DNA of 64,000 nt from a virus (Duplodnaviria > Caudoviricetes), in the IMG/VR virus record IMGVR_UViG_3300037067_013660, positions 32,001-96,000 of that record, one strand, 5' to 3'. The position numbers and the translations under genes are program-made. This document shows positions 2,595 to 64,000 of the stretch, in pieces. Each line of letters begins with the position of its first letter. The stretch's first letter is position 1. The notes beneath the pieces are model-generated. The model was given only the letters and a program-made list of their open reading frames with translations. It was not told the origin of the DNA and ran no database searches.

Positions 2595-4136
2595 CTATGC
2601 CTGTTTCCCGTGTACCAAGAGTTTGTCCACCACCCAATCGGTCTTGATGAACTTCCTAGTGTCGAGCGTAACGGCCAAACGAAACTGAACCCTGCTGGTC
2701 GCGGGCAACACAGTGTTGGATGCCATGCGCCTGAACTGTTCCGTCACGGCAAACCGGTACCACACCGACACCATGTCGAGTGGAATGTTGCCCGTGATGG
2801 ACCAACCATCGAAAACAACCGGCACGGAAAACGTCTGCTCCGCAAAATTGACGAAGTTGTCTTCCGTGTAAGCGTCGAGGTTGAAGCGGTGGATCCGTTT
2901 GTTCGCAGGGTCCGTCACGATCAGCACGTTGGTCGCCTGGTCATCAATCGTCACGGTATCGACCACAATGCCGTAGGGCTGACCGACGGCACCGTAGACG
3001 TCGGATGACAATCGAGTATAGCCTACGGGTGTCGCGTCCTCAGACGATCTAATTCCGTAGGTCGCGAGATGTTGGTACGTCGTGGCATCGAATTCTTCGA
3101 TGGTACCGGTATCGCCATTCGCGATGTACAGGTGTTCAAAATCACCAACGACGGAACGGAAGTAAATCTGCTGCGGTCCGCGAAGCGTGTAGTCAGCACC
3201 AGCCGATTCAATGAAGCGCGTACAGATGGGCGCGGCGCCCGACACGTCGAATGCCCCGACCGTATCGTTCCCGTTGTTGGAAATCCACAGAAGTGTTCCG
3301 TCGTAAACCAAATCGACGGGCGTGTAGACCTGTGCGTCCAGCAAGGAGCCGGTGCCCGCGTAGAAAAACGGAATTGAATCAAATACCGGTACCGCGATGG
3401 TGCTGAGGTCGTAGACGGCGACGAAACCGTTCGATGCCGTGGCACCGGCGGGCTGTCCCGTCGGGCACGAAACGTACAATACCTCGTTGACGGTATCGAC
3501 GGCCAAGCCGTTGGGAGCCGTCAGCAGGTCGGCATCGGCTCCGGGCGTATCGACGGTCCCGATGGTCGCGACGAGCGTGTAGGGCGCGGCGTAAAGATAA
3601 ATGTGGACGACGTGGTGCGTCGCGTCCGCCACCGCCACGTACTCGATGGTCGAGATCGTAAACGTGATGGCGCAAGCAGGATCCTCATAATCGCCAGCCG
3701 CCGTGTTGGGGCCGTAGTGTGGTAGGCGCCGAATTACGTCCAGCTTGTTGTTCAGCAGAAATACGCCCGAGCCCGTAGCCCCGATGCCGCCGTCGGACAA
3801 CAAATAATAGATGCCGTCCGTCACGGTAGCGCGTCGAAACAGTCGGCGCGGCTCCGACGTGAGTCCCTCACGATAAGCCGACAACGTCGTCTGAAAACCC
3901 TTGGGCTTGAACGCAATGGTACGGTTGGCGCTGTCCTGTAGCAGTAGTCCGAGGCCACTCTCGAAATCCGCGTACGTCTGTGCGACCGCAATGTCGGGCG
4001 TCAGTGCCTCGACCCTCGCCAACAAATTCTGCACGTAGGTAGCGTCCTGTAGGATCGTGTTCTTTCGCACGAAGTCCACGTCCTGCAACGCGGTCGCGAG
4101 AAAGTCCTTGAACTGATCAAACTGAGATATACTCAT
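2595..4136 (-). CDS. NHL-repeat beta-propeller protein, probably virion-associated
   Basis: 513 aa; repeated NHL-like units (LTAPNGLAVD...LYVS; YTPVDLVYD..LWISNNGND; QPYGIVVD...VTDPANKRIHRF). Confidence 0.7.
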   Translation of the reverse strand: MSISQFDQFKDFLATALQDVDFVRKNTILQDATYVQNLLARVEALTPDIAVAQTYADFESGLGLLLQDSANRTIAFKPKGFQTTLSAYREGLTSEPRRLFRRATVTDGIYYLLSDGGIGATGSGVFLLNNKLDVIRRLPHYGPNTAAGDYEDPACAITFTISTIEYVAVADATHHVVHIYLYAAPYTLVATIGTVDTPGADADLLTAPNGLAVDTVNEVLYVSCPTGQPAGATASNGFVAVYDLSTIAVPVFDSIPFFYAGTGSLLDAQVYTPVDLVYDGTLLWISNNGNDTVGAFDVSGAAPICTRFIESAGADYTLRGPQQIYFRSVVGDFEHLYIANGDTGTIEEFDATTYQHLATYGIRSSEDATPVGYTRLSSDVYGAVGQPYGIVVDTVTIDDQATNVLIVTDPANKRIHRFNLDAYTEDNFVNFAEQTFSVPVVFDGWSITGNIPLDMVSVWYRFAVTEQFRRMASNTVLPATSRVQFRLAVTLDTRKFIKTDWVVDKLLVHGKQA

Positions 4137-50629: not shown

Positions 50630-52698
50630 CTATTTGTCACGTATCCATTTGTGATCCAAATCCCATAATGACTTCTGCTTTATTTCGGCGGTTGTGCGGG
50701 CATGTCCTTTTGCTGGCAAGGAATCGCGGCCGTATGCTGCCGCTTGCTTGATCCGTTGGACTGCGTGTCGATACCAATGTTCATCCAGTTCAATGCCGAT
50801 GAATCGTCTACCCGTCAACACGGCCGCCACGCCAGTGGATCCAGATCCCATGAATGGATCCAACACGATGTCTCCTGGTTTCGTATGGAGCTGGATAAAA
50901 TGGGCGGCCAACCGCCACGATTTTTCTGTTGGATGTTGTGTAGCACTCGGGATAATCTTCTTGATGCCGTAGTCGCCAGGCCGAATGATGTTTTCAACGT
51001 CGTGTGCCTCGCTATGCCAACGGGCTTTACCTTTACGGTGTGCCACCAGTACGAATTCGTAACTACGGCGGTATCGCCAACCCATTCCTATTGAATTGTG
51101 TCCAAGTGCACCATTGCCGACATAGAACAGATGTTTTGGATGATCAACCGTGATGTCGTAAACTTTCCCCTTGTACTTTCTGTGCGAAATATCTACTACG
51201 TCAACCCATGCAATTGTTCCATCGTTTGTGGCAAAAACGTTATTGTAGTGTCCGAGAGGGCTGTACCTCAGCTTCCAGTGTTCCGCCAATTTACCATTCT
51301 TCTTGACGTAGGTAGAAACGTTATGGTGTACAGCGCACGGCTGACTGCGCATCTTCAGTAGCCAAGACATTTGTTCGATCAATTTGGAAGATGCCGATAC
51401 ACCCTCAAATTGGTTGCAGCTTTTTCGGAAGTGCCCGTCACCATCCATCCATCCGTCGAGTACACCGGCTAAGAATTCAGGACAACCCTGTAGTACTGTT
51501 TGTGATAGTTGTTTATTGACGGCTATTCCTGGAACTAATTTGTGAAAAATAGTTGCCAGCGTTTTTCCATTGATCCGGGTTCTCGCTTTTTCCCCAGATA
51601 CGGTTTCTGTCTTCACCTGTATGCCGTAATTACCACACCATGTATGGATTCTAGCCACGTATTCAGCTTCTTTTGCGTGGTGTGTTAATTGAATAGAGTT
51701 ATGGTGAACGTCGCCCTCTGCTGCATAAAAGCCGACCATCCACCCAAAATCGTAGTCCATTGGGATGCGTAATGGTAGCCAACTATGTGCAAAGTGTGCC
51801 CGTACCGCGATCAGACGATTTTCTGGGATCGGAAATTTCAAGGGAACTTGGTGTTTACTCAACCACCAATGCGCTTTGTTGTAGCGCAAACCCAAATGCT
51901 CTGCTAAGGTGCACGTGCTGACGTCTTTCCTACTCTTCAGCTTTCCTACTAGGTAGTCACGACCGAGCAAGTCAACTACCGACAAAAATGTTTTGCCTGT
52001 GTCCTTGCGTTTGGCCATCAGCGTTGGAACCTTATCACCCAGCTTAATTTCATCAGCACGCCTGCACCCGTCTACGCATTCTATTGGATGATTTGGCGTC
52101 ACTTTTAATTTTGTACCGTCTCGTAATTTAAGAATGACGAGATCACCACGAAAAGATCTGATGCTTGTATCGACAACGGCTGACCACTTTCCTTCAGCGT
52201 CAACTACTTCGACATACTTGTCTGATGATTGTTGTCGAACAACATCAGCTATGTTCGTGAATTCGACCATACCATCAATACGGCATGGAAGCCGCGTAGA
52301 AGGATGGTAGCAACCTTTGTCCCACACGACCGCCTGTTCCCAGACAAACGTTTGGTTAATGGCATCGGCCCATCGAACGAATTGTATGCCTTTGTGCCCG
52401 CCCCCCCTCCACAGCAACACGCTACGTAGCCGCCAGGCTTCAGGATGTTGCGCCATAACGGCAAAGACGAAAGAAACAAATCATTAGCTTGGTCAAAATC
52501 ATCATTTTGGATAGGACGTCCTTCGTCATGTCGGTCTCTGTTTTTGCACGCGTGTCCAACGCGTCTGATGAGGTCATCGTTGTTGTTGTTGTGCCCATAG
52601 GGCGGATCCGTAAAAATGAAGTGTACGGGCTTTAGCTTAGGCAAAATGTCCAAACTATTCCCTCGGTACAGTCGGGCCTTATCATCGATGCGGATCAT
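50630..52698 (-). CDS. N4/N6 DNA methyltransferase (DPPY) with an intein; frameshifted at a G7 tract (OFF state or error)
   Basis: The 5' ORF has FTDPPY and the 3' ORF has VWDK, HPTEK, LDPFMGSGST; G8 instead of G7 at 52401-52407 joins them into CCCGGGGGHKGIQF, collinear with paralog 57888..58724; KSLWD tag. Confidence 0.85.
51095..52312 (-). mobile_element. LAGLIDADG intein (406 aa) in the methyltransferase
   Basis: Starts CYHPSTRL; VTPNHP block B; GFYAAEGD and GWMDGDG motifs; ends VYDI.V...HLFYVGNGALGHN before Ser. Confidence 0.92.
52401..52407 (-). repeat. G7 homopolymer at the MTase frameshift
   Basis: Plus strand CCCCCCC; adding 1 nt restores the frame. Confidence 0.85.
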
Positions 52699-54728
52699 CG
52701 GTCCCATAGCGTTTTCTCCGGCTTCTTTGGTTCGTCGTGTTGTTTCGTTTGTTTGGTCTTGACGCGGAATGCCTTGGGGTGACGGCGGGCGAAACGAATA
52801 CGGTGGCGTGCGATCTCGGCGTATTCTTCCTCTCGCTCGACACCGAAGAAATCAAAGCCCTCCAACATGCACGCGATGCCGGTGGTACCGCTGCCCGTAA
52901 ACGGATCCAATACCATGCCGTTGGGTGGCGTGACGAGTCGTACTAGGTAGCGCATCAGGTCCACGGGCTTGACGGTTGTGTGGGTATTGTGCCGAACCGT
53001 ATCACCGCGCTGGTATGGGTTGTCGATGGAGGTGCCGCGTCCGTCGTTGACGTTTTTGCTAGGGAAATCGTGTAACCCGAGTTCGCGTTCTCGACGTGAC
53101 GCTTTAGCGCAATACTTAAATCTTGCCAAAGCCTGATCCCCATGTACCATATTCTGCGACGTGATTTTTAATGTGACAGGCACGGCAGAGCCATTTAATT
53201 TCAAATGGTTTATCATAATTTTCATGGTGCCTGTCTGCGCGCAAAGATCCACAAACTTCACAAGGCATTTGTTTTGGGAATGCTTTTCGCGCCCGCACTC
53301 TGGCCAGTACCCGTTTTCTAAACTCAGGATCGTCGCGATAGCGATTGCGGAGATTATTTTTAATTCTGGCTGAGTTACGTGAATAGAATGTTCCTTCAAA
53401 TCGCTTGATAGATTGACCCCTGGGACTACCGAGGTTACTACAGCGTTTAGAACAGAATCTACGTGTTTTTCGATTTGGTTTGAATACTTTGCCACAGTAC
53501 TCGCAATTTCTTGGTTCCATTTGTTTATTACCTCCATAGTAGTATGAAGAATTAAATCATCATTGTGTGTAAATTGTTCGAAAAACCGGCTGGCTGTCCC
53601 CGCGTCACCATGTTGAGGACCTGCTGGTTTGCCTGTTGACGGTGCCCATATTCCGCCGCTGCCGCTGCCGCTGTGAGAGTAGCCGCTTTGCTCGTCCAAC
53701 ATTTTGACTGGACACCCATCAACGCATTCCCATTGTTCTGTTGTTTCGGTACCGTCAGGATCAGCGTATCCTCTCCTTGTCTGGGCTGTCGGTCGGAATC
53801 TCCATTGAGTTTTGTCACCCCTACCTGCATCTCCCTCTGGCCTTGTATCAGTGCGTCCACCATCAATCTTCTTTGTCCCCGCGCAACGACACCCATCTGA
53901 ATGCTGGAGCACCACGTTTGACGGCCACCGACCAGTTGTTTGCCTGCCGGTGTAGGGATGACCCGCGCCACCCCCGAACGGCTTAGAGCCGTCATCCCAC
54001 GTATTAATCGTAACGGTGTCGGTACCGACGCGACACCCATCAATGTTTAGACCACCAGTTCCCCATTTGAGGACATTCTCCGCAACCGTGCCATCCAGGG
54101 GTTTGCGCGCAAGGATGATGGGTTCATGTGCAGGTTTAAGTGCTACGTTGAAGCCCTGCCAGTCAAAAGCCTTTTGACTGGCAGGTAGTGTTACGTCGAC
54201 AGGTGTATTGGGTTTCAATCCCCACTTACCACGATCATTAGGAATGTTGCCTTGTCCTCTACGCTGCCCTATGACTTTTCGTTTCTTTTTAAGTTTTCGA
54301 TCTATAGCTTTTGATATGTCGTGTCCCTTTGGAAATCCTGACCCAAAAAGGTAACTAATGGTATCGCGTAGCTCAAACCCCGCCAACCGGATCGCGATGG
54401 CCATCAGGTCCATGGTTCTGGTACCTGCAAACGCCAACACGTAGCCGCCGGGCTTCAGGACACGCCGACACGCCCGCCACGTTTCGGGACCGGGGACAAA
54501 CCCGTCCCACTCTTTTCCCATGAAACCCTTTTTCTTGGTCTTGTGTCGTTTCCTAGATAACCACGCCGTCAACGCCGCTTCGATGTCCTCGGTCGTGTGG
54601 GCTGCTAATCCATAGGGTGGGTCGCACACGATCGCGTCGATGCTGTTGGCCGGTAGGTCGCGCAGTACATCGCGGCAATCGCCCGTCACGACTCGGAACC
54701 TTAGCTTTTTCTTTTCGTTATTTCCCAA
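52695..54728 (-). CDS. N4/N6 DNA methyltransferase (DPPY) carrying a ~145-codon in-frame insertion
   Basis: CDPPYG, GSGFPK, LKPAHEPI..ARKP, GRWP.N, H.TVKP, LDPFTGSGTT; KTLWD tag. Confidence 0.9.
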   Translation of the reverse strand: MGNNEKKKLRFRVVTGDCRDVLRDLPANSIDAIVCDPPYGLAAHTTEDIEAALTAWLSRKRHKTKKKGFMGKEWDGFVPGPETWRACRRVLKPGGYVLAFAGTRTMDLMAIAIRLAGFELRDTISYLFGSGFPKGHDISKAIDRKLKKKRKVIGQRRGQGNIPNDRGKWGLKPNTPVDVTLPASQKAFDWQGFNVALKPAHEPIILARKPLDGTVAENVLKWGTGGLNIDGCRVGTDTVTINTWDDGSKPFGGGAGHPYTGRQTTGRWPSNVVLQHSDGCRCAGTKKIDGGRTDTRPEGDAGRGDKTQWRFRPTAQTRRGYADPDGTETTEQWECVDGCPVKMLDEQSGYSHSGSGSGGIWAPSTGKPAGPQHGDAGTASRFFEQFTHNDDLILHTTMEVINKWNQEIASTVAKYSNQIEKHVDSVLNAVVTSVVPGVNLSSDLKEHSIHVTQPELKIISAIAIATILSLENGYWPECGREKHSQNKCLVKFVDLCAQTGTMKIMINHLKLNGSAVPVTLKITSQNMVHGDQALARFKYCAKASRRERELGLHDFPSKNVNDGRGTSIDNPYQRGDTVRHNTHTTVKPVDLMRYLVRLVTPPNGMVLDPFTGSGTTGIACMLEGFDFFGVEREEEYAEIARHRIRFARRHPKAFRVKTKQTKQHDEPKKPEKTLWDR
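53116..53520 (-). CDS. HNH endonuclease nested out of frame within the MTase gene
   Basis: Own GGAGG RBS; N-terminal CEYCGK.F...FCS..C zinc finger; CEVCG...HHENY.KP....WLC..CH...H HNH core. Confidence 0.85.
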   Translation of the reverse strand: MEPRNCEYCGKVFKPNRKTRRFCSKRCSNLGSPRGQSIKRFEGTFYSRNSARIKNNLRNRYRDDPEFRKRVLARVRARKAFPKQMPCEVCGSLRADRHHENYDKPFEIKWLCRACHIKNHVAEYGTWGSGFGKI

Positions 54729-55241
54729 ATCGACACCGATGGTTTCGATGGTTCTGGCGTGTACTTAGGTCTATTGCGTTTTACCGTCAAATCAACTTCG
54801 CCCGCGACCCAACATTTCTTAGGACAGGTTGGTGCTTTGTCTTGTCGCGGACGAGCAGCGCAGTTCCAAGAACCGCCAGAAGTGGTGTGTGTGTGTCCAT
54901 CCAACAGCACGTAACGACGTACCTGATTCCTCGTCCAGCGTATAGGTGATGACGCGGTGGTACCCCATGGCTTTGGCGGTACGCCACGCTGCAGCATAAA
55001 GAAATGATGGCACGTTGGGAGTTCCGTCGCTACAAAGTCGGTTGACCTCTAACGTAAGATCGTCGTAACTTTTGGCGACGGGACGTCCGACGGTCACGAC
55101 ACCCACGAGTTTGTCGTCGACCCAGCAGGCAAGAGAAAATTTATGGCCAACGACTGGTTGGTGGTGTCGATGATGGCGTGCTATAAAAGCGTTGGCCTCG
55201 ACTAACGAAATGGGAAACAAACGTAGGTCAGCGTACCGCAT
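54701..55241 (-). CDS. Mom-like/XF1762-family GNAT DNA-modification protein; frameshifted at (AC)6
   Basis: AN.FI..HHRHH, VGRPVA, LEVNRLC, SFLY.A, ITYTL..ESG.SLRA.GW; the expected tail GGSW...RPR.DK.P...K..W and a VSIWE tag lie in another frame joined by (AC)7. Confidence 0.8.
54885..54896 (-). repeat. (AC)6 dinucleotide repeat at the frameshift of the Mom-like gene
   Basis: Plus strand (GT)6; (AC)7 or (AC)4 restores the frame. Confidence 0.85.
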
Positions 55242-61916: not shown

Positions 61917-64000
61917 TGCGTGTATCCACAGGTACGGCAGCACGGACACTTGCCCGGTATGATGACGAGCGTACAGTTACCGCACCCCGGACAATAATCG
62001 TACGGTAGCTTGATGCCGTCTTGCTCTGCCTTTTTGATTTCGGTTTCGATTTCGGTACGGTATTCGTCTACGTCGTGACCGTTGCCAGGATCGCCCTCCA
62101 GCACGTAGCGACTGATTTGATCCAGTTTCGTAACGTCGCCGCCGCAGGTCCGCAACTCGTCGAGCAACTCTTTCATCGGCTGAATACCAAACGGTAGGTT
62201 CGCGACGGGGAAATCGGCTTCAAGGTACCGGTTCAGTATCTTCGCGATGGCGTCAGGCATCGACCGTTTGGCCTCGGGTCCAAACCCTACTTGACCACGG
62301 CCCAAGATGTCGATCAATTGATCGCGGATCAATTCGAGCCGCATCTGCTGATTGATCTTCTGGTCGTTGGGGAACCGTAGGATCATGCTCATGAGGCGAC
62401 CGATTGCTTCGCCGTCGGCCGACGCATCACCCTTACCCGTGATGACGAAGACGTCGATGGGGTCACCAGTTTGTGGATCGTGTCGGATCGTTAGGTGGAT
62501 GGTACCGATGGGCGACTCTTCCGAGAACGTTACGCTCATGCCTGCGTTGGGACGTGGGCGTACGACGGCGGTTTCGGATGACGCTTCAACCACTTGCACG
62601 GGTACGGGCTTGTCGGTGTAGAGGACCTGTACGTCGCGGCTGCTGTCGCGGTAAACGGTTCCGCCCTTACACCCTAGTTCCCACATCAACATGTAGGTAT
62701 AGGCTACGTCCTTGACGGTCGCGTTGGCGGGCAAATTCGCAGTTTTTGATATCGCCGAATCAACCCACCGTTGCATCGCGGCTTGGGTTTTGACGTGGTG
62801 CTCGGGCGTGATGCCCCGCTGTGCCGTCACGACGTACAGAGGCCATTTTTGTGGTTCCGTACCGAACTGTTGGAAGATTTGATCGACGACCCCAGCTTTT
62901 TCTTTCACGATGCCGATGCGTGTCGTGCTGGTATACTGGAGGTCGAAGAACGGTTCGCATCCCGTCGACGTATTCATGATGGCGGCTGTACTTCCAGTCG
63001 GCGCAATGGTGGTGACGGTGACGTTACGGATGCCATGCTTGCGAACCAACGCCCGTACGTCTTTGGGCATCTGCTTCATGAAGCCGCTGTTGAGGAAATG
63101 GTCCACTTGAAACCGTGGGAACGCACCGCGTTCTTTTGCCAACTGGACCGACGCCTTGTACGCCGTCGTCGTGAAGACCCGCATCAACTCGTCGGTAAAC
63201 GCGAGGGCGTCGGCAGATCCGTAGCACAGACCTAACCGCATCAAGGCGTCGCCGTAACCGAGGATCCCGAGTCCTATGCGCCGTTCCGACAACTGTTGCT
63301 TCTTTACGGCGTCGTCGTGGTAGACGTTCAGGTCGTTGACGTTGTCGAGGAACCGGACGCCCATCTGTACGTCAGACTTTAGGGTTTCCCAATCAAACGC
63401 TTGCTTGGCTTGCTCGGTTGTCTGGACGGTGTGGGGCAATGTCGTGGTCGTGACGTAACGCCCGAGGTTCAGGTGTGCTAAATTGCACACTGCGTTGTCC
63501 GGAAGTACCTGTTCGCTGCAGTTCGACAATATGATGCCGTTGCCGATGAACGTACTGGTCGTGGTATTGACGACATCGTACACGTCGGCGTCTCCGGCAA
63601 ATTCGCACGATACCATTTTCGCGGTACCGCCGGCTACCTGTACGATAGATTCTTTCGTCAGGTCTTTAATCGCTACCTTCCCTGTATTCGTCAGTACTCT
63701 GTGGTCGGGTGTGGCTTGTAGCGTGTACGTCTGTCCTTCGGGTTGGTCTGCGCGCAGTACCAACGTTACGGTTGGTTTATGTCCAGTGAAGACGACTCGT
63801 TCTGCTTTATCGGATCGGTGTTGTGGCGAAATTGTGGTCAGTAATTTGTCTGCTCCGTGCTGTCGCGCGTCTACGGCGACCAGACAGTTTTGTTCCCCTG
63901 CCATATCTTTTACGCGGCGGTGGTACAGATTTCCGTCGGGCCGCGCGCACGTCACCATGGTATCGCCCGTAACGCAGGGATTAGTTCCGATCAACGGTGC
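61910..64000 (-). CDS. nrdJ: Class II (B12-dependent) ribonucleotide reductase, 3' part, with a mini-intein
   Basis: TNP|CSEQ, CNL, RRIGLG, TIAPTG, SAISKT.N, KG.TVYRD.SR, C-terminal TSCPD-like domain and zinc ribbon; 5' end outside the window. Confidence 0.92.
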   Translation of the reverse strand, partial: APLIGTNPCVTGDTMVTCARPDGNLYHRRVKDMAGEQNCLVAVDARQHGADKLLTTISPQHRSDKAERVVFTGHKPTVTLVLRADQPEGQTYTLQATPDHRVLTNTGKVAIKDLTKESIVQVAGGTAKMVSCEFAGDADVYDVVNTTTSTFIGNGIILSNCSEQVLPDNAVCNLAHLNLGRYVTTTTLPHTVQTTEQAKQAFDWETLKSDVQMGVRFLDNVNDLNVYHDDAVKKQQLSERRIGLGILGYGDALMRLGLCYGSADALAFTDELMRVFTTTAYKASVQLAKERGAFPRFQVDHFLNSGFMKQMPKDVRALVRKHGIRNVTVTTIAPTGSTAAIMNTSTGCEPFFDLQYTSTTRIGIVKEKAGVVDQIFQQFGTEPQKWPLYVVTAQRGITPEHHVKTQAAMQRWVDSAISKTANLPANATVKDVAYTYMLMWELGCKGGTVYRDSSRDVQVLYTDKPVPVQVVEASSETAVVRPRPNAGMSVTFSEESPIGTIHLTIRHDPQTGDPIDVFVITGKGDASADGEAIGRLMSMILRFPNDQKINQQMRLELIRDQLIDILGRGQVGFGPEAKRSMPDAIAKILNRYLEADFPVANLPFGIQPMKELLDELRTCGGDVTKLDQISRYVLEGDPGNGHDVDEYRTEIETEIKKAEQDGIKLPYDYCPGCGNCTLVIIPGKCPCCRTCGYTQC
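63521..63976 (-). mobile_element. Mini-intein (152 aa, no endonuclease) at the RNR active-site Cys
   Basis: Starts CVTGDTMV; ATPDHRV block B; ends VYDV...F.GNGIILSN before Cys. Confidence 0.9.

What the first reader, a model, noticed from the sequence alone, without database searches (positions are those of the whole stretch)
53116..53560. HNH endonuclease hidden out of frame inside an MTase that stays open across it (no intron, no intein)
Seen: a 134-aa zinc finger+HNH ORF with its own GGAGG RBS lies wholly inside the 677-aa MTase on the same strand in another frame. The MTase frame has no stop over about 145 codons of AT-rich DNA. The HNH stop falls exactly where MTase conservation resumes (RFKYCAKAS). 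The related MTase at 60405 has only a short linker at this position. There are no intein termini and no room for an intron core. Inference: a homing element that avoids harming its host gene by dual coding. I recall a similar out-of-frame HNH insertion described in actinobacteriophage methylases (ShiLan domain), so this may be an independent instance rather than wholly new.
Basis: partly seen in the sequence, partly recalled or inferred. Interest (0 to 1): 0.75.

Follow-up and report, generated by a model that had tools for sequence, protein, structure and literature searches.

The report
Hidden HNH nuclease inside methyltransferase gene
A selfish HNH nuclease gene sits in a shifted reading frame inside a jumbo-phage DNA methyltransferase gene, and selection keeps the methyltransferase frame stop-free so it is read straight through; the design was published in 2025, and this is a new, widespread lineage of it at a different site.

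Summary
A 134-aa zinc-ribbon + HNH ORF (53116-53520, minus strand) has GGAGG 10 nt before its ATG. It lies at offset +2 inside a 677-aa beta-class N6/N4 MTase (52695-54728) whose frame has no stop.

In this one sequence the open frame is weak evidence. Given the HNH protein, the chance of it is 0.03-0.34. The family settles the matter:
- All about 64 embedded relatives sit at the same SRFF|YCAKAS motif and have 0 host-frame stops.
- All 19 free-standing relatives have 2-14 such stops (Fisher p = 3e-18).
- The HNH frame is conserved (63% identity). The host-frame peptide (34%) is no better conserved than the unused frame, except a duplicated Arg-Phe at the 3' junction and a short 5' peptide.

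No intron or intein signal was found. One sub-lineage carries a 100% identical element in three divergent MTase alleles, which indicates recent transfer.

This is the kind of element published as the ShiLan/Pacc40 hidden HNH (Arsenault et al. 2025). It uses a different insertion site and a different HNH clade, and it occurs well beyond actinophages. This scan has already noted the kind many times, including this same family on other DNA. I class it as a new member of a known kind. Expression, cleavage and MTase activity are untested.

The parts
52695..54728 (-). Host gene: beta-class N6/N4 DNA methyltransferase, one open frame of 677 codons (alternative GTG start at 54689 gives 664 aa)
   Evidence: ORF list. 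PF01555 E = 1e-28 in two stretches and phrog_67 E = 6e-64. The DPPY motif and the DPFxGSGTT motif are present, and every column invariant across 32 homologs is kept.
53580..54728 (-). MTase part upstream of the insert (residues 1-383), ending in the motif T-A-S-R-F-F (SRFF codons 53580-53591)
   Evidence: Empty alleles read SRFF directly followed by YCAKAS.
53115..53579 (-). The insertion relative to empty alleles: 465 nt = 155 host-frame codons (E-Q-F ... A-R-F-K); GC 0.41 versus 0.57 in the exons; the last four bases are TAAG (HNH stop plus 1 nt)
   Evidence: Boundaries come from 64 empty alleles with a contiguous SRFF|Y.AK motif and from the junction alignment. GC. AF2 pLDDT is below 50 across the insert.
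53521..53579 (-). 59-nt leader of the element, read only in the MTase frame. It holds the Shine-Dalgarno GGAGG (53531-53535) 10 nt before the HNH ATG. It is a degenerate copy of a leader peptide (E-L-L-F-C-R-A-K-A-I-M/L) conserved in a subgroup of relatives.
   Evidence: Sequence. Leader alignment with most variation at the third position of the MTase frame (diversity 0.32/0.19/0.47). No sigma-70-like promoter on this strand.
53116..53520 (-). Hidden gene: 134-aa nuclease with an N-terminal FCS-type zinc ribbon (C6, C9, C23, C27) and a C-terminal zinc-knuckle HNH / His-Me finger (C87, C90, H98, H99, C112, H116, H120); offset +2 relative to the MTase frame
   Evidence: Translation. phrog_2340 'endonuclease' E = 1e-9. 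13 database homologs at 48-66% identity. Invariant columns. AF2 pLDDT 89.5 with beta-beta-alpha at residues 96-124. Weak structural matches to the GVE2 and Gme HNH nucleases, Z 3.5-3.7.
53115..53123 (-). 3' junction codons R-F-K: a second copy of the host R-F-F motif carried at the end of the insert; the HNH stop TAA overlaps the F-K codons
   Evidence: Across 45 occupied alleles, Arg is at -3 in 41 (five different Arg codons) and Phe at -2 in 32. In most of them these codons lie beyond the HNH stop.
52695..53114 (-). MTase part downstream of the insert (Y539 onward: YCAKAS, HxTVKP, DPFTGSGTT SAM-binding motif)
   Evidence: PF01555 best stretch at residues 567-640. AF2 pLDDT 82-96 for residues 540-650. 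Matches to the solved DpnA and CcrM structures at residues 580-650.
60405..61949 (-). Paralogous MTase in the same phage without the element (SRYF, a 22-aa linker, then FLYVAKPS); used as a comparator, not part of the element
   Evidence: It groups near the host MTase on a long branch.

Best explanation
A mobile, homing-type nuclease gene has inserted into the conserved SRFF|YCAKAS motif of a phage beta-class N6/N4 DNA methyltransferase. This motif lies between the variable target-recognition region and the SAM-binding half of the enzyme. The element is 465 nt long: a 59-nt leader, a 134-codon zinc-ribbon + HNH ORF, and one base.

It is not removed by RNA or protein splicing. It is written so that the host frame, one base ahead of the HNH frame, contains no stop codon. 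Ribosomes that translate the MTase read through it and produce a 155-residue, largely unstructured loop. The HNH is made separately, by internal initiation at its own GGAGG-ATG on the same mRNA.

Selection acts on the HNH sequence, on the absence of host-frame stops, and on short host-frame pieces at both ends of the insert. Those pieces are a duplicated Arg-Phe before the Tyr and, in a subgroup, a leader helix. They probably let the two MTase halves still fold together.

The nuclease presumably cuts or nicks empty SRFFYCAKAS-coding alleles in co-infecting relatives, and the element is copied in during repair.

Shown here: the anatomy, the family-wide selection on the open frame, conservation confined to the HNH frame, and recent lateral spread in one sub-lineage. 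Inferred: HNH expression and cleavage, retained MTase activity, and absence of splicing.
For: Anatomy.

Family and site:
- About 57 relatives of the HNH (49-72% identity) and 7 of a shorter sub-lineage (about 32% identity) all lie at the same SRFF|Y.AK site of homologous MTases.
- All share the +2 offset and have 0 host-frame stops. The third frame has up to 25 stops, and only L053 has none.
- All 19 free-standing relatives have 2-14 stops in the equivalent frame. Fisher p = 2.6e-18.
- Synonymous permutation expects 0.92 stops per embedded copy, and none is observed in 49. The combined log10 P is -28.7 if the copies are treated as independent.

Which frame is selected:
- Mean pairwise identity is 0.63 in the HNH frame, 0.34 in the host frame and 0.35 in the third frame.
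- Nucleotide diversity peaks at HNH codon position 3.

Host-frame pieces and empty alleles:
- 64 of 65 empty alleles read SRFF|YCAKAS.
- Arg-Phe is duplicated at the 3' junction, with varied Arg codons.
- The leader peptide varies most at the third position of the host frame.

Against splicing: no Rfam intron in the window or in 18 relatives, and no intein domain in this MTase although the neighbouring MTase scores one.

Host and nuclease integrity:
- The MTase core motifs are intact, with AF2 pLDDT above 90. The insert is below 50.
- The HNH model is confident.

Mobility:
- A 100% identical element plus its flanks sits in three MTase alleles that diverge sharply 22 nt upstream.
- Occupied and empty alleles are interspersed on the MTase tree.
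- L022 is incongruent between the HNH and MTase trees.

Precedent: PMC11855218.
Against: - For this copy alone the open frame is not statistically unusual once the HNH coding is considered (P 0.03-0.34).
- No expression, cleavage or methylation data exist.
- Pfam's HNH model does not reach threshold, and structural matches to solved HNH nucleases are weak (Z at most 3.7). The nuclease assignment therefore rests on motifs, PHROGs and annotated phage homologs.
- The AF2 model of the MTase is also poor for the native region 236-383, so a surface-loop position for the insert is not shown.
- Evidence for horizontal movement is mixed. The Mantel test is not significant (r = 0.13, p = 0.12). Two of four post-hoc AU tests do not reject congruence, and WIN-L012 co-descent is not rejected.
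- No closely related empty allele of this phage's own MTase was found; the best is 55% identical.
- The relatives are not phylogenetically independent, so the combined P is an overstatement.
Confidence: 0.8

Rival explanations
1. The insert is removed by an unrecognised form of RNA splicing (a degenerate or novel intron whose core overlaps the HNH ORF), and the open host frame is incidental.
For: Group I introns with HNH genes are common in phage genes. The insert length is a multiple of 3 either way. Rfam holds only described families. The ShiLan authors could not exclude splicing experimentally.
Against: Only 59 nt at the 5' end and 1 nt at the 3' end lie outside the ORF. No Intron_gpI or gpII match was found at E up to 10 in the window, or at gathering score in 18 relatives. 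If the RNA were spliced there would be no selection for a stop-free host frame, yet all about 64 embedded copies are open and all 19 free-standing ones are closed. Host-frame protein-level selection at both insert ends would also be unexplained.
Confidence: 0.05
2. The element is a fixed, no longer mobile relic in this phage. The HNH is retained for another use, such as cutting the DNA of competing phages that carry empty alleles, or it is simply not yet decayed. The MTase loop is now an ordinary domain insertion.
For: No close empty allele was found for this MTase. WIN and L012 may have co-descended with their hosts. The window's leader has lost the conserved peptide, and position 101 is N where at least 90% of the family has D. 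The family is old, with MTase branches of 0.4-1 changes per site.
Against: All 18 invariant residues of the family are intact in this copy, and it has a good Shine-Dalgarno sequence. The insert GC is 16 points below its exons, the largest gap among the five loci listed individually (41 of 44 inserts are lower, mean gap 6.7 points), which suggests fairly recent arrival. Relatives show recent lateral spread.
Confidence: 0.1
3. The insertion has inactivated the MTase. The gene is a dispensable casualty, one of several MTases in this phage, and the open frame is luck.
For: The single-copy probability of an open frame is 0.17-0.34. The phage carries at least three other N6/N4 MTase genes and a C5 MTase nearby, some visibly broken. 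The insert splits a motif that is contiguous in 64 of 65 homologs.
Against: The open frame holds in every embedded relative down to about 30% HNH identity. Both MTase halves keep all family-invariant residues. The Arg-Phe duplication is under host-frame selection.
Confidence: 0.04

Closest known systems
ShiLan domain: hidden out-of-frame HNH endonuclease in mycobacteriophage DNA methylases (Arsenault, Gosselin & Gogarten 2025, Genes 16:178, PMC11855218)
   Same: The host enzyme family is the same: PF01555, and Pollywog gp67 aligns with this MTase. The host frame is stop-free across the insert. The HNH lies in the third frame, with the same +2 offset. An N-terminal CxxCG...[FY]CSxxCS zinc ribbon is shared. 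[quoted passage not shown] A host motif is duplicated at a junction. No intron or intein signature is present. The in-frame peptide gives a low-confidence model.
   Different: The insertion site differs: ALKP|xEPxxxARKP there, SRFF|YCAKAS here, about 160 residues downstream. The nuclease clade differs: 195 aa, Pfam HNH_3 (I-HmuI-like) with zinc fingers on both sides there, against 134 aa with a CxxC...CxxH zinc-knuckle HNH and no Pfam hit here. ShiLan has a GTG start with no RBS, and leaderless initiation was proposed; this copy has ATG with GGAGG. ShiLan is known from about ten actinophages, whereas this lineage is in 60+ uncultivated phage contigs of GC 35-67% and in a jumbo phage.
Pacc40 gp60 hidden HNH-like insertion (same paper)
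   Same: An out-of-frame DNA-binding or nuclease ORF inside a read-through insertion in a phage methylase. Free-standing relatives of the nuclease exist elsewhere, as they do here.
   Different: The methylase family (helicase-methylase fusion), the site and the nuclease (AP2/HNH-like, 160 aa) are all different.
Free-standing homing endonucleases that split a host gene (for example mobE splitting nrdA in Aeromonas phage Aeh1; from my own knowledge, not checked here)
   Same: A homing endonuclease gene without an intron or intein inserted inside a conserved phage enzyme gene.
   Different: In those cases the host gene is broken into two separately translated pieces. Here the host frame stays continuous. 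Gene callers did split relatives into an HNH plus an 81-aa C-terminal piece, but the frame is open in all of them.
Group I intron-encoded HNH endonucleases (for example I-HmuI; I-PfoP3I, PMC3428280)
   Same: An HNH nuclease gene carried inside a conserved phage gene, expected to home into empty alleles.
   Different: There is no intron core, no Rfam match and no room outside the ORF, and the host frame is under selection to stay open.

Membership tests
Hidden out-of-frame HNH insertion element (ShiLan/Pacc40 kind) | The insert interrupts a conserved motif of a phage DNA methylase, and the host frame has no stop across it | tested here: met
   SRFF|YCAKAS is contiguous in 64 of 65 empty alleles. 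There are 0 stops over 155 codons in the window and in all about 64 embedded relatives.
Hidden out-of-frame HNH insertion element (ShiLan/Pacc40 kind) | A complete HNH/zinc-finger ORF in another frame of the same strand, ending at the very 3' end of the insert | tested here: met
   134-aa ORF at offset +2. The stop lies 1 nt before the Tyr codon, and 1, 7, 10 or 13 nt before it in 42 of the 48 relatives with a locatable junction. Pollywog's ShiLan-type ORF has the same offset.
Hidden out-of-frame HNH insertion element (ShiLan/Pacc40 kind) | No self-splicing intron and no intein | tested here: met
   Rfam searches were negative. No Hint or intein Pfam hit was found in this MTase, although the neighbouring MTase scores PF14890. 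The insert starts with Glu and is followed by Tyr, so it lacks intein termini. Splicing was not tested experimentally.
Hidden out-of-frame HNH insertion element (ShiLan/Pacc40 kind) | Disjunct distribution indicating mobility | tested here: inconclusive
   At least 9 changes (2 forced by strongly supported branches) on the MTase tree. Mantel r = 0.13. AU tests were mixed. There is clear recent spread in the L003/L004/L005 sub-lineage, but nothing for this copy.
ShiLan domain proper (orthologous element) | Same insertion site and homologous nuclease | tested here: not met
   The site is about 160 residues away. Identity is 29% over 125 aa, driven by the zinc ribbon. Pfam gives HNH_3 for ShiLan and no hit for this protein.
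HNH / His-Me finger nuclease | Beta-beta-alpha metal finger with a conserved His-His, a distal His, and flanking CxxC pairs | tested here: inconclusive
   Family-invariant residues are C87, C90, H98, H99, C112, H116 and H120. The AF2 model has strand 96-99, strand 108-111 and helix 113-124 at pLDDT above 90. phrog_2340 'endonuclease' scores E = 1e-9. Against this, Pfam HNH is below threshold and solved HNH structures match only at Z 2.4-3.7.
Beta-class N6/N4 DNA methyltransferase (PF01555) | DPPY catalytic motif N-terminal to the FxGxG SAM-binding motif; Pfam gathering score | tested here: met
   PF01555 scores 101 bits against a cut-off of 26.7. D36-P-P-Y and D608-P-F-x-G-S-G are present. The protein matches the solved DpnA, CcrM and RsrI structures.
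Group I intron with homing endonuclease gene | Conserved P3-P9 catalytic core flanking or overlapping the ORF | tested here: not met
   No Intron_gpI hit at E up to 10 in 52400-54900, and none at gathering score in 18 relatives. Only 59 + 1 nt lie outside the ORF.
Intein | Hint domain; Cys/Ser/Thr at the first residue; His-Asn at the end followed by Cys/Ser/Thr | tested here: not met
   No Hint or intein family was found in the 677-aa protein. The insert begins E-Q-F, ends R-F-K, and is followed by Tyr.

The most novel reading that the evidence does not exclude
The element is not merely tolerated. It carries dedicated host-frame adaptor pieces: a duplicated Arg-Phe(-x) copy of the split motif at its 3' end and, in a subgroup, a conserved E-L-L-F-C-R-A-K-A-I helix in its leader. 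These are under MTase-frame protein selection and actively restore folding of the interrupted enzyme. Together with the shared +2 offset, which is the only offset in which an HNH ORF is intrinsically poor in overlapping stops, this would define general design rules for a third, splicing-free way for homing endonuclease genes to be phenotypically silent. The design is widespread in phages of all GC contents.
Probability: 0.35. Interest if true: 0.6.

Novelty: new member of a known kind. Interest (0 to 1): 0.4.

Why it matters
Homing endonuclease genes were long thought to need an intron or an intein to avoid destroying the gene they invade. The 2025 ShiLan report proposed a third route, in-frame read-through of an out-of-frame nuclease gene, from a handful of mycobacteriophages and without a test for selection.

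This lineage shows the same design at another site of the same enzyme family, with another HNH clade, in dozens of uncultivated phages from 35% to 67% GC. It also supplies a natural control: embedded copies are always open in the host frame, and free-standing relatives never are. That control shows the open frame is selected.

For annotation, gene callers either miss the nuclease or wrongly split the methyltransferase. In practical terms, the insertion point marks a place in beta-class MTases that tolerates a loop of about 150 residues. The finding is not new in kind.

Tried and rejected
- Intron search: Rfam at E up to 10 on the region, and at gathering score on 18 relatives, found no intron.
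- Homologs of the host-frame insert peptide: only the window's own protein was found, so the loop is not a conserved domain.
- Pfam and NCBIfam on the HNH: nothing above threshold.
- Foldseek against the PDB: no match at E up to 1e-3. The wider structural search gave only weak HNH matches.
- AF2 of the whole MTase to place the insert in 3D: the native variable region 236-383 is also low-confidence, so the position remains unresolved.
- Internal promoter for the HNH in the window: none on the minus strand.
- A -1 frameshift fusion of the MTase N-terminus to the HNH: rejected. The HNH frame has two stops 13-14 codons upstream of the ATG, and there is no slippery heptamer in between.
- A close empty allele of this MTase, to fix the boundaries by nucleotide alignment: none above 55% protein identity in IMG/VR. 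Boundaries were taken from the motif instead.
- Genome collection: only 3 hits, all in MAGs.
- Co-phylogeny: the Mantel test was not significant and the AU tests were mixed. The quick MTase tree was suboptimal, because a constrained tree scored higher.
- Chance as an explanation was rejected at family level only.
Full report
**Observation.** On the minus strand, an ORF of 677 codons (52695-54728) encodes a beta-class N6/N4 DNA methyltransferase.
- Its family scores are PF01555 E = 1e-28 in two stretches and phrog_67 E = 6e-64.
- Wholly inside it, starting 1208 nt (2 mod 3) downstream, lies a 134-codon ORF (53116-53520) with GGAGG at 53531-53535, 10 nt before its ATG.
- Across this stretch the MTase frame has no stop. 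The third frame has 18 within the HNH ORF.
- The stretch is AT-richer than its surroundings, GC 0.41 against 0.57.
- The window belongs to an IMG/VR virus record of 196,895 nt, estimated 56% complete, so this is a jumbo phage. The HNH is single-copy in that record.

**How unusual is the open frame?** From base composition alone, 153 open codons have a probability of about 4e-5. That figure is misleading.
- With this offset, a host-frame stop can arise only where an HNH codon ends in TA or TG and the next codon starts with A or G (TA) or A (TG).
- Keeping the HNH protein fixed, the chance of no stop is 0.03 with uniform synonymous codons, 0.17 with this phage's codon usage, and 0.34 when the gene's own codons are permuted.
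- Taken alone, this copy therefore proves little.

**The family settles it.** The HNH has 13 close homologs in the protein collection (48-66% identity) and about 57 loci in IMG/VR, other metagenomes and one MAG.
- In every one that has flanks, the HNH lies between the same two MTase motifs and at the same +2 offset.
- The MTase frame has 0 stops in all of them. The third frame has up to 25, and only L053 has none.
- A shorter sub-lineage (109-113 aa, about 32% identical, 7 loci) sits at the same site and is also open.
- By contrast, all 19 more distant relatives that are free-standing, with no MTase flanks, have 2-14 stops in the equivalent frame. These include L092, which is 53% identical.
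- Zero of 57 against 19 of 19 gives Fisher p = 2.6e-18.
- Permutation expects 0.92 stops per embedded copy and none is seen in 49. The copies are related, so the combined P is an upper bound on significance. Synonymous sites at 50-70% protein identity are largely saturated, however.

**Which frame is selected?** On 104 codon pairs taken from the 113 ungapped columns across 48 sequences:
- Mean pairwise amino-acid identity is 0.63 in the HNH frame, 0.34 in the MTase frame and 0.35 in the unused frame.
- Nucleotide diversity is highest at HNH codon position 3 (0.57, against 0.32 and 0.28).

The body of the host-frame peptide is therefore filler. It is Ser/Thr/Pro/Ala-rich in high-GC relatives and more hydrophobic here. 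It has no homolog beyond itself, and AF2 models it at pLDDT below 50.

**Boundaries and junctions.** 64 of 65 insert-free homologs read S-R-F-F directly followed by Y-C-A-K-A-S.
- The window reads S-R-F-F, then 155 codons, then Y-C-A-K-A-S. The insert is therefore 53115-53579 (465 nt).
- Its last four bases are TAAG, which is the HNH stop plus one base. This matches the TAAC end described for ShiLan.
- The final three host-frame codons of the insert, R-F-K, repeat the R-F-F that precedes it.
- Across 45 occupied alleles, Arg is at -3 in 41, using five different Arg codons, and Phe is at -2 in 32. In most of them these codons lie beyond the HNH stop. This looks like MTase-frame protein selection.
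- In a subgroup with a 62-nt leader, the host frame encodes a conserved E-L-L-F-C-R-A-K-A-I-(M/L). Its variation is concentrated at host-frame third positions (0.32/0.19/0.47). The window has a degenerate version.
- The element thus appears to carry short adaptor pieces at both ends, read in the host frame. This is inference.

**Not an intron, not an intein.**
- Only 59 nt at the 5' end and 1 nt at the 3' end lie outside the HNH ORF.
- Rfam finds no intron in the window at E up to 10, nor in 18 relatives at gathering score.
- The MTase has no Hint or intein hit, whereas the neighbouring MTase scores PF14890. The insert's ends (E-Q-F ... R-F-K, followed by Tyr) are not intein termini.
- The strongest argument is evolutionary: a spliced insert would not need an open host frame.
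- A frameshift fusion of MTase and HNH is unlikely, because two stops lie 13-14 codons upstream of the ATG in the HNH frame.

**The two proteins.**
- The MTase keeps DPPY, the DPFxGSGTT motif and every column invariant in 32 homologs. Its core models at pLDDT above 90. Solved relatives are DpnA, CcrM and RsrI.
- The insertion lies between the variable region and the C-terminal SAM-binding half. Its 3D position could not be resolved, because residues 236-383 also model poorly.
- The HNH has an FCS-type zinc ribbon (C6, C9, C23, C27) and a zinc-knuckle His-Me finger (C87, C90, H98, H99, C112, H116, H120). All of these residues are family-invariant.
- Its AF2 model is confident (pLDDT 89.5), with a beta-beta-alpha unit at residues 96-124.
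- Support for the nuclease assignment comes from phrog_2340 (E = 1e-9), from phage homologs annotated as endonuclease, and from weak matches to the GVE2 and Gme HNH structures (Z 3.5-3.7).
- Pfam HNH does not reach threshold.

**Mobility.**
- Occupied and empty alleles are interspersed on the MTase tree. Parsimony needs 9 changes, of which 2 are forced by strongly supported branches.
- HNH and MTase distances are barely correlated (Mantel r = 0.13, p = 0.12).
- The HNH is on average more conserved than its host (58% against 46%).
- Post-hoc AU tests reject congruence for L022 in both directions (p = 0.043 and 0.009). They do not reject it for WIN-L012 or for L016-L053.
- The clearest case is in a high-GC sub-lineage. 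L003, L004 and L005 carry a 100% (or 99.8%) identical element, identical from 22 nt upstream of the insert through about 350-450 nt downstream. The roughly 130 nt just upstream are three unrelated alleles with indels. This is the pattern expected from recent transfer with co-conversion.
- For the window's copy, only the low GC of the insert (0.41 vs 0.57) hints at recent arrival.

**Comparison with what is known.** Arsenault, Gosselin and Gogarten (2025; PMC11855218) described the ShiLan domain and the Pacc40 gp60 insert as out-of-frame HNH genes inside read-through insertions in mycobacteriophage methylases.
- Pollywog gp67, a homolog of this MTase, carries the ShiLan-type insert at ALKP|xEP, about 160 residues upstream of the site used here.
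- That insert encodes an HNH_3-type nuclease, also at offset +2.
- The two nucleases share the N-terminal zinc ribbon but little else (29% identity).
- This lineage is therefore the same kind of element, but a separate one.
- I found no paper that describes this lineage.
- This scan has noted the kind 74 times in at least 62 genomes, and this same family once on other DNA (e1-5952665).

**Verdict.** The feature is real, is under selection and is well explained, but it is not new in kind. HNH expression, cleavage specificity, absence of splicing and MTase activity all remain to be tested.

Noticed in passing
window 50630-52707 (-): The adjacent N6/N4 MTase carries an intein (PF14890 E = 1e-13, weak LAGLIDADG_3). 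It is also read in two frames that switch at a homopolymer run near 52400-52410. The N-terminal 152-aa ORF (52249-52707) and the 608-aa ORF (50630-52456) overlap.
   Followed up: no
window 61910-64000 (-): In the ribonucleotide reductase large subunit, the barrel-domain match starts at residue 140. The preceding 139 residues begin C-V-T-G-D-T and end I-L-S-N followed by Cys, which looks like an intein or intein remnant. The ORF runs off the window.
   Followed up: no
window 55228-56915 (-): The C5 cytosine MTase appears in two overlapping ORFs. ORF 56493-56915 hits PF00145 at positions 3-102 only. The 459-aa ORF 55228-56607 has no Pfam hit and contains repeated W-P-T-P modules.
   Followed up: no
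window 54819-55241 (-): A Mom-family protein (PF25680, E = 2.4e-5, just below the cut-off) lies immediately downstream of the host MTase's start region. It matches only profile positions 2-133 of 202, so it may be truncated.
   Followed up: no
L003:1-420, L004:440-907, L005:1-276: Three metagenome contigs carry the same element at 99.8-100% nucleotide identity. Identity starts 22 nt upstream of the insert, while the preceding roughly 130 nt are three unrelated MTase alleles. This is a sharp recombination boundary at the element's 5' flank.
   Followed up: partly
L010:761-1366: A 201-aa variant of the hidden HNH has two extra zinc-ribbon modules inserted after the first. It sits at the same MTase site with the host frame still open.
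   Followed up: no
L016, L017, L040 (about 45 nt before the HNH ATG at 3001): The conserved leader reads TTGCTT (TTGTTT in L016), 17 nt, TATAAT, ending 6 nt before the ATG. This is a sigma-70-like promoter placed to give a leaderless HNH mRNA. The same bases also encode the conserved host-frame peptide, so it may be coincidence. The window's leader lacks it.
   Followed up: partly
L013, L035, L058: In these relatives the MTase N- and C-parts are not in one continuous frame, or lie far apart. This suggests additional insertions or breaks elsewhere in the same host gene.
   Followed up: no
L001:1106-1462 (Mycobacterium phage Pollywog gp66): An annotated free-standing HNH endonuclease gene lies immediately upstream of the ShiLan-type methylase gp67. 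Several other mycobacteriophages have an endonuclease VII gene next to the homologous methylase.
   Followed up: no
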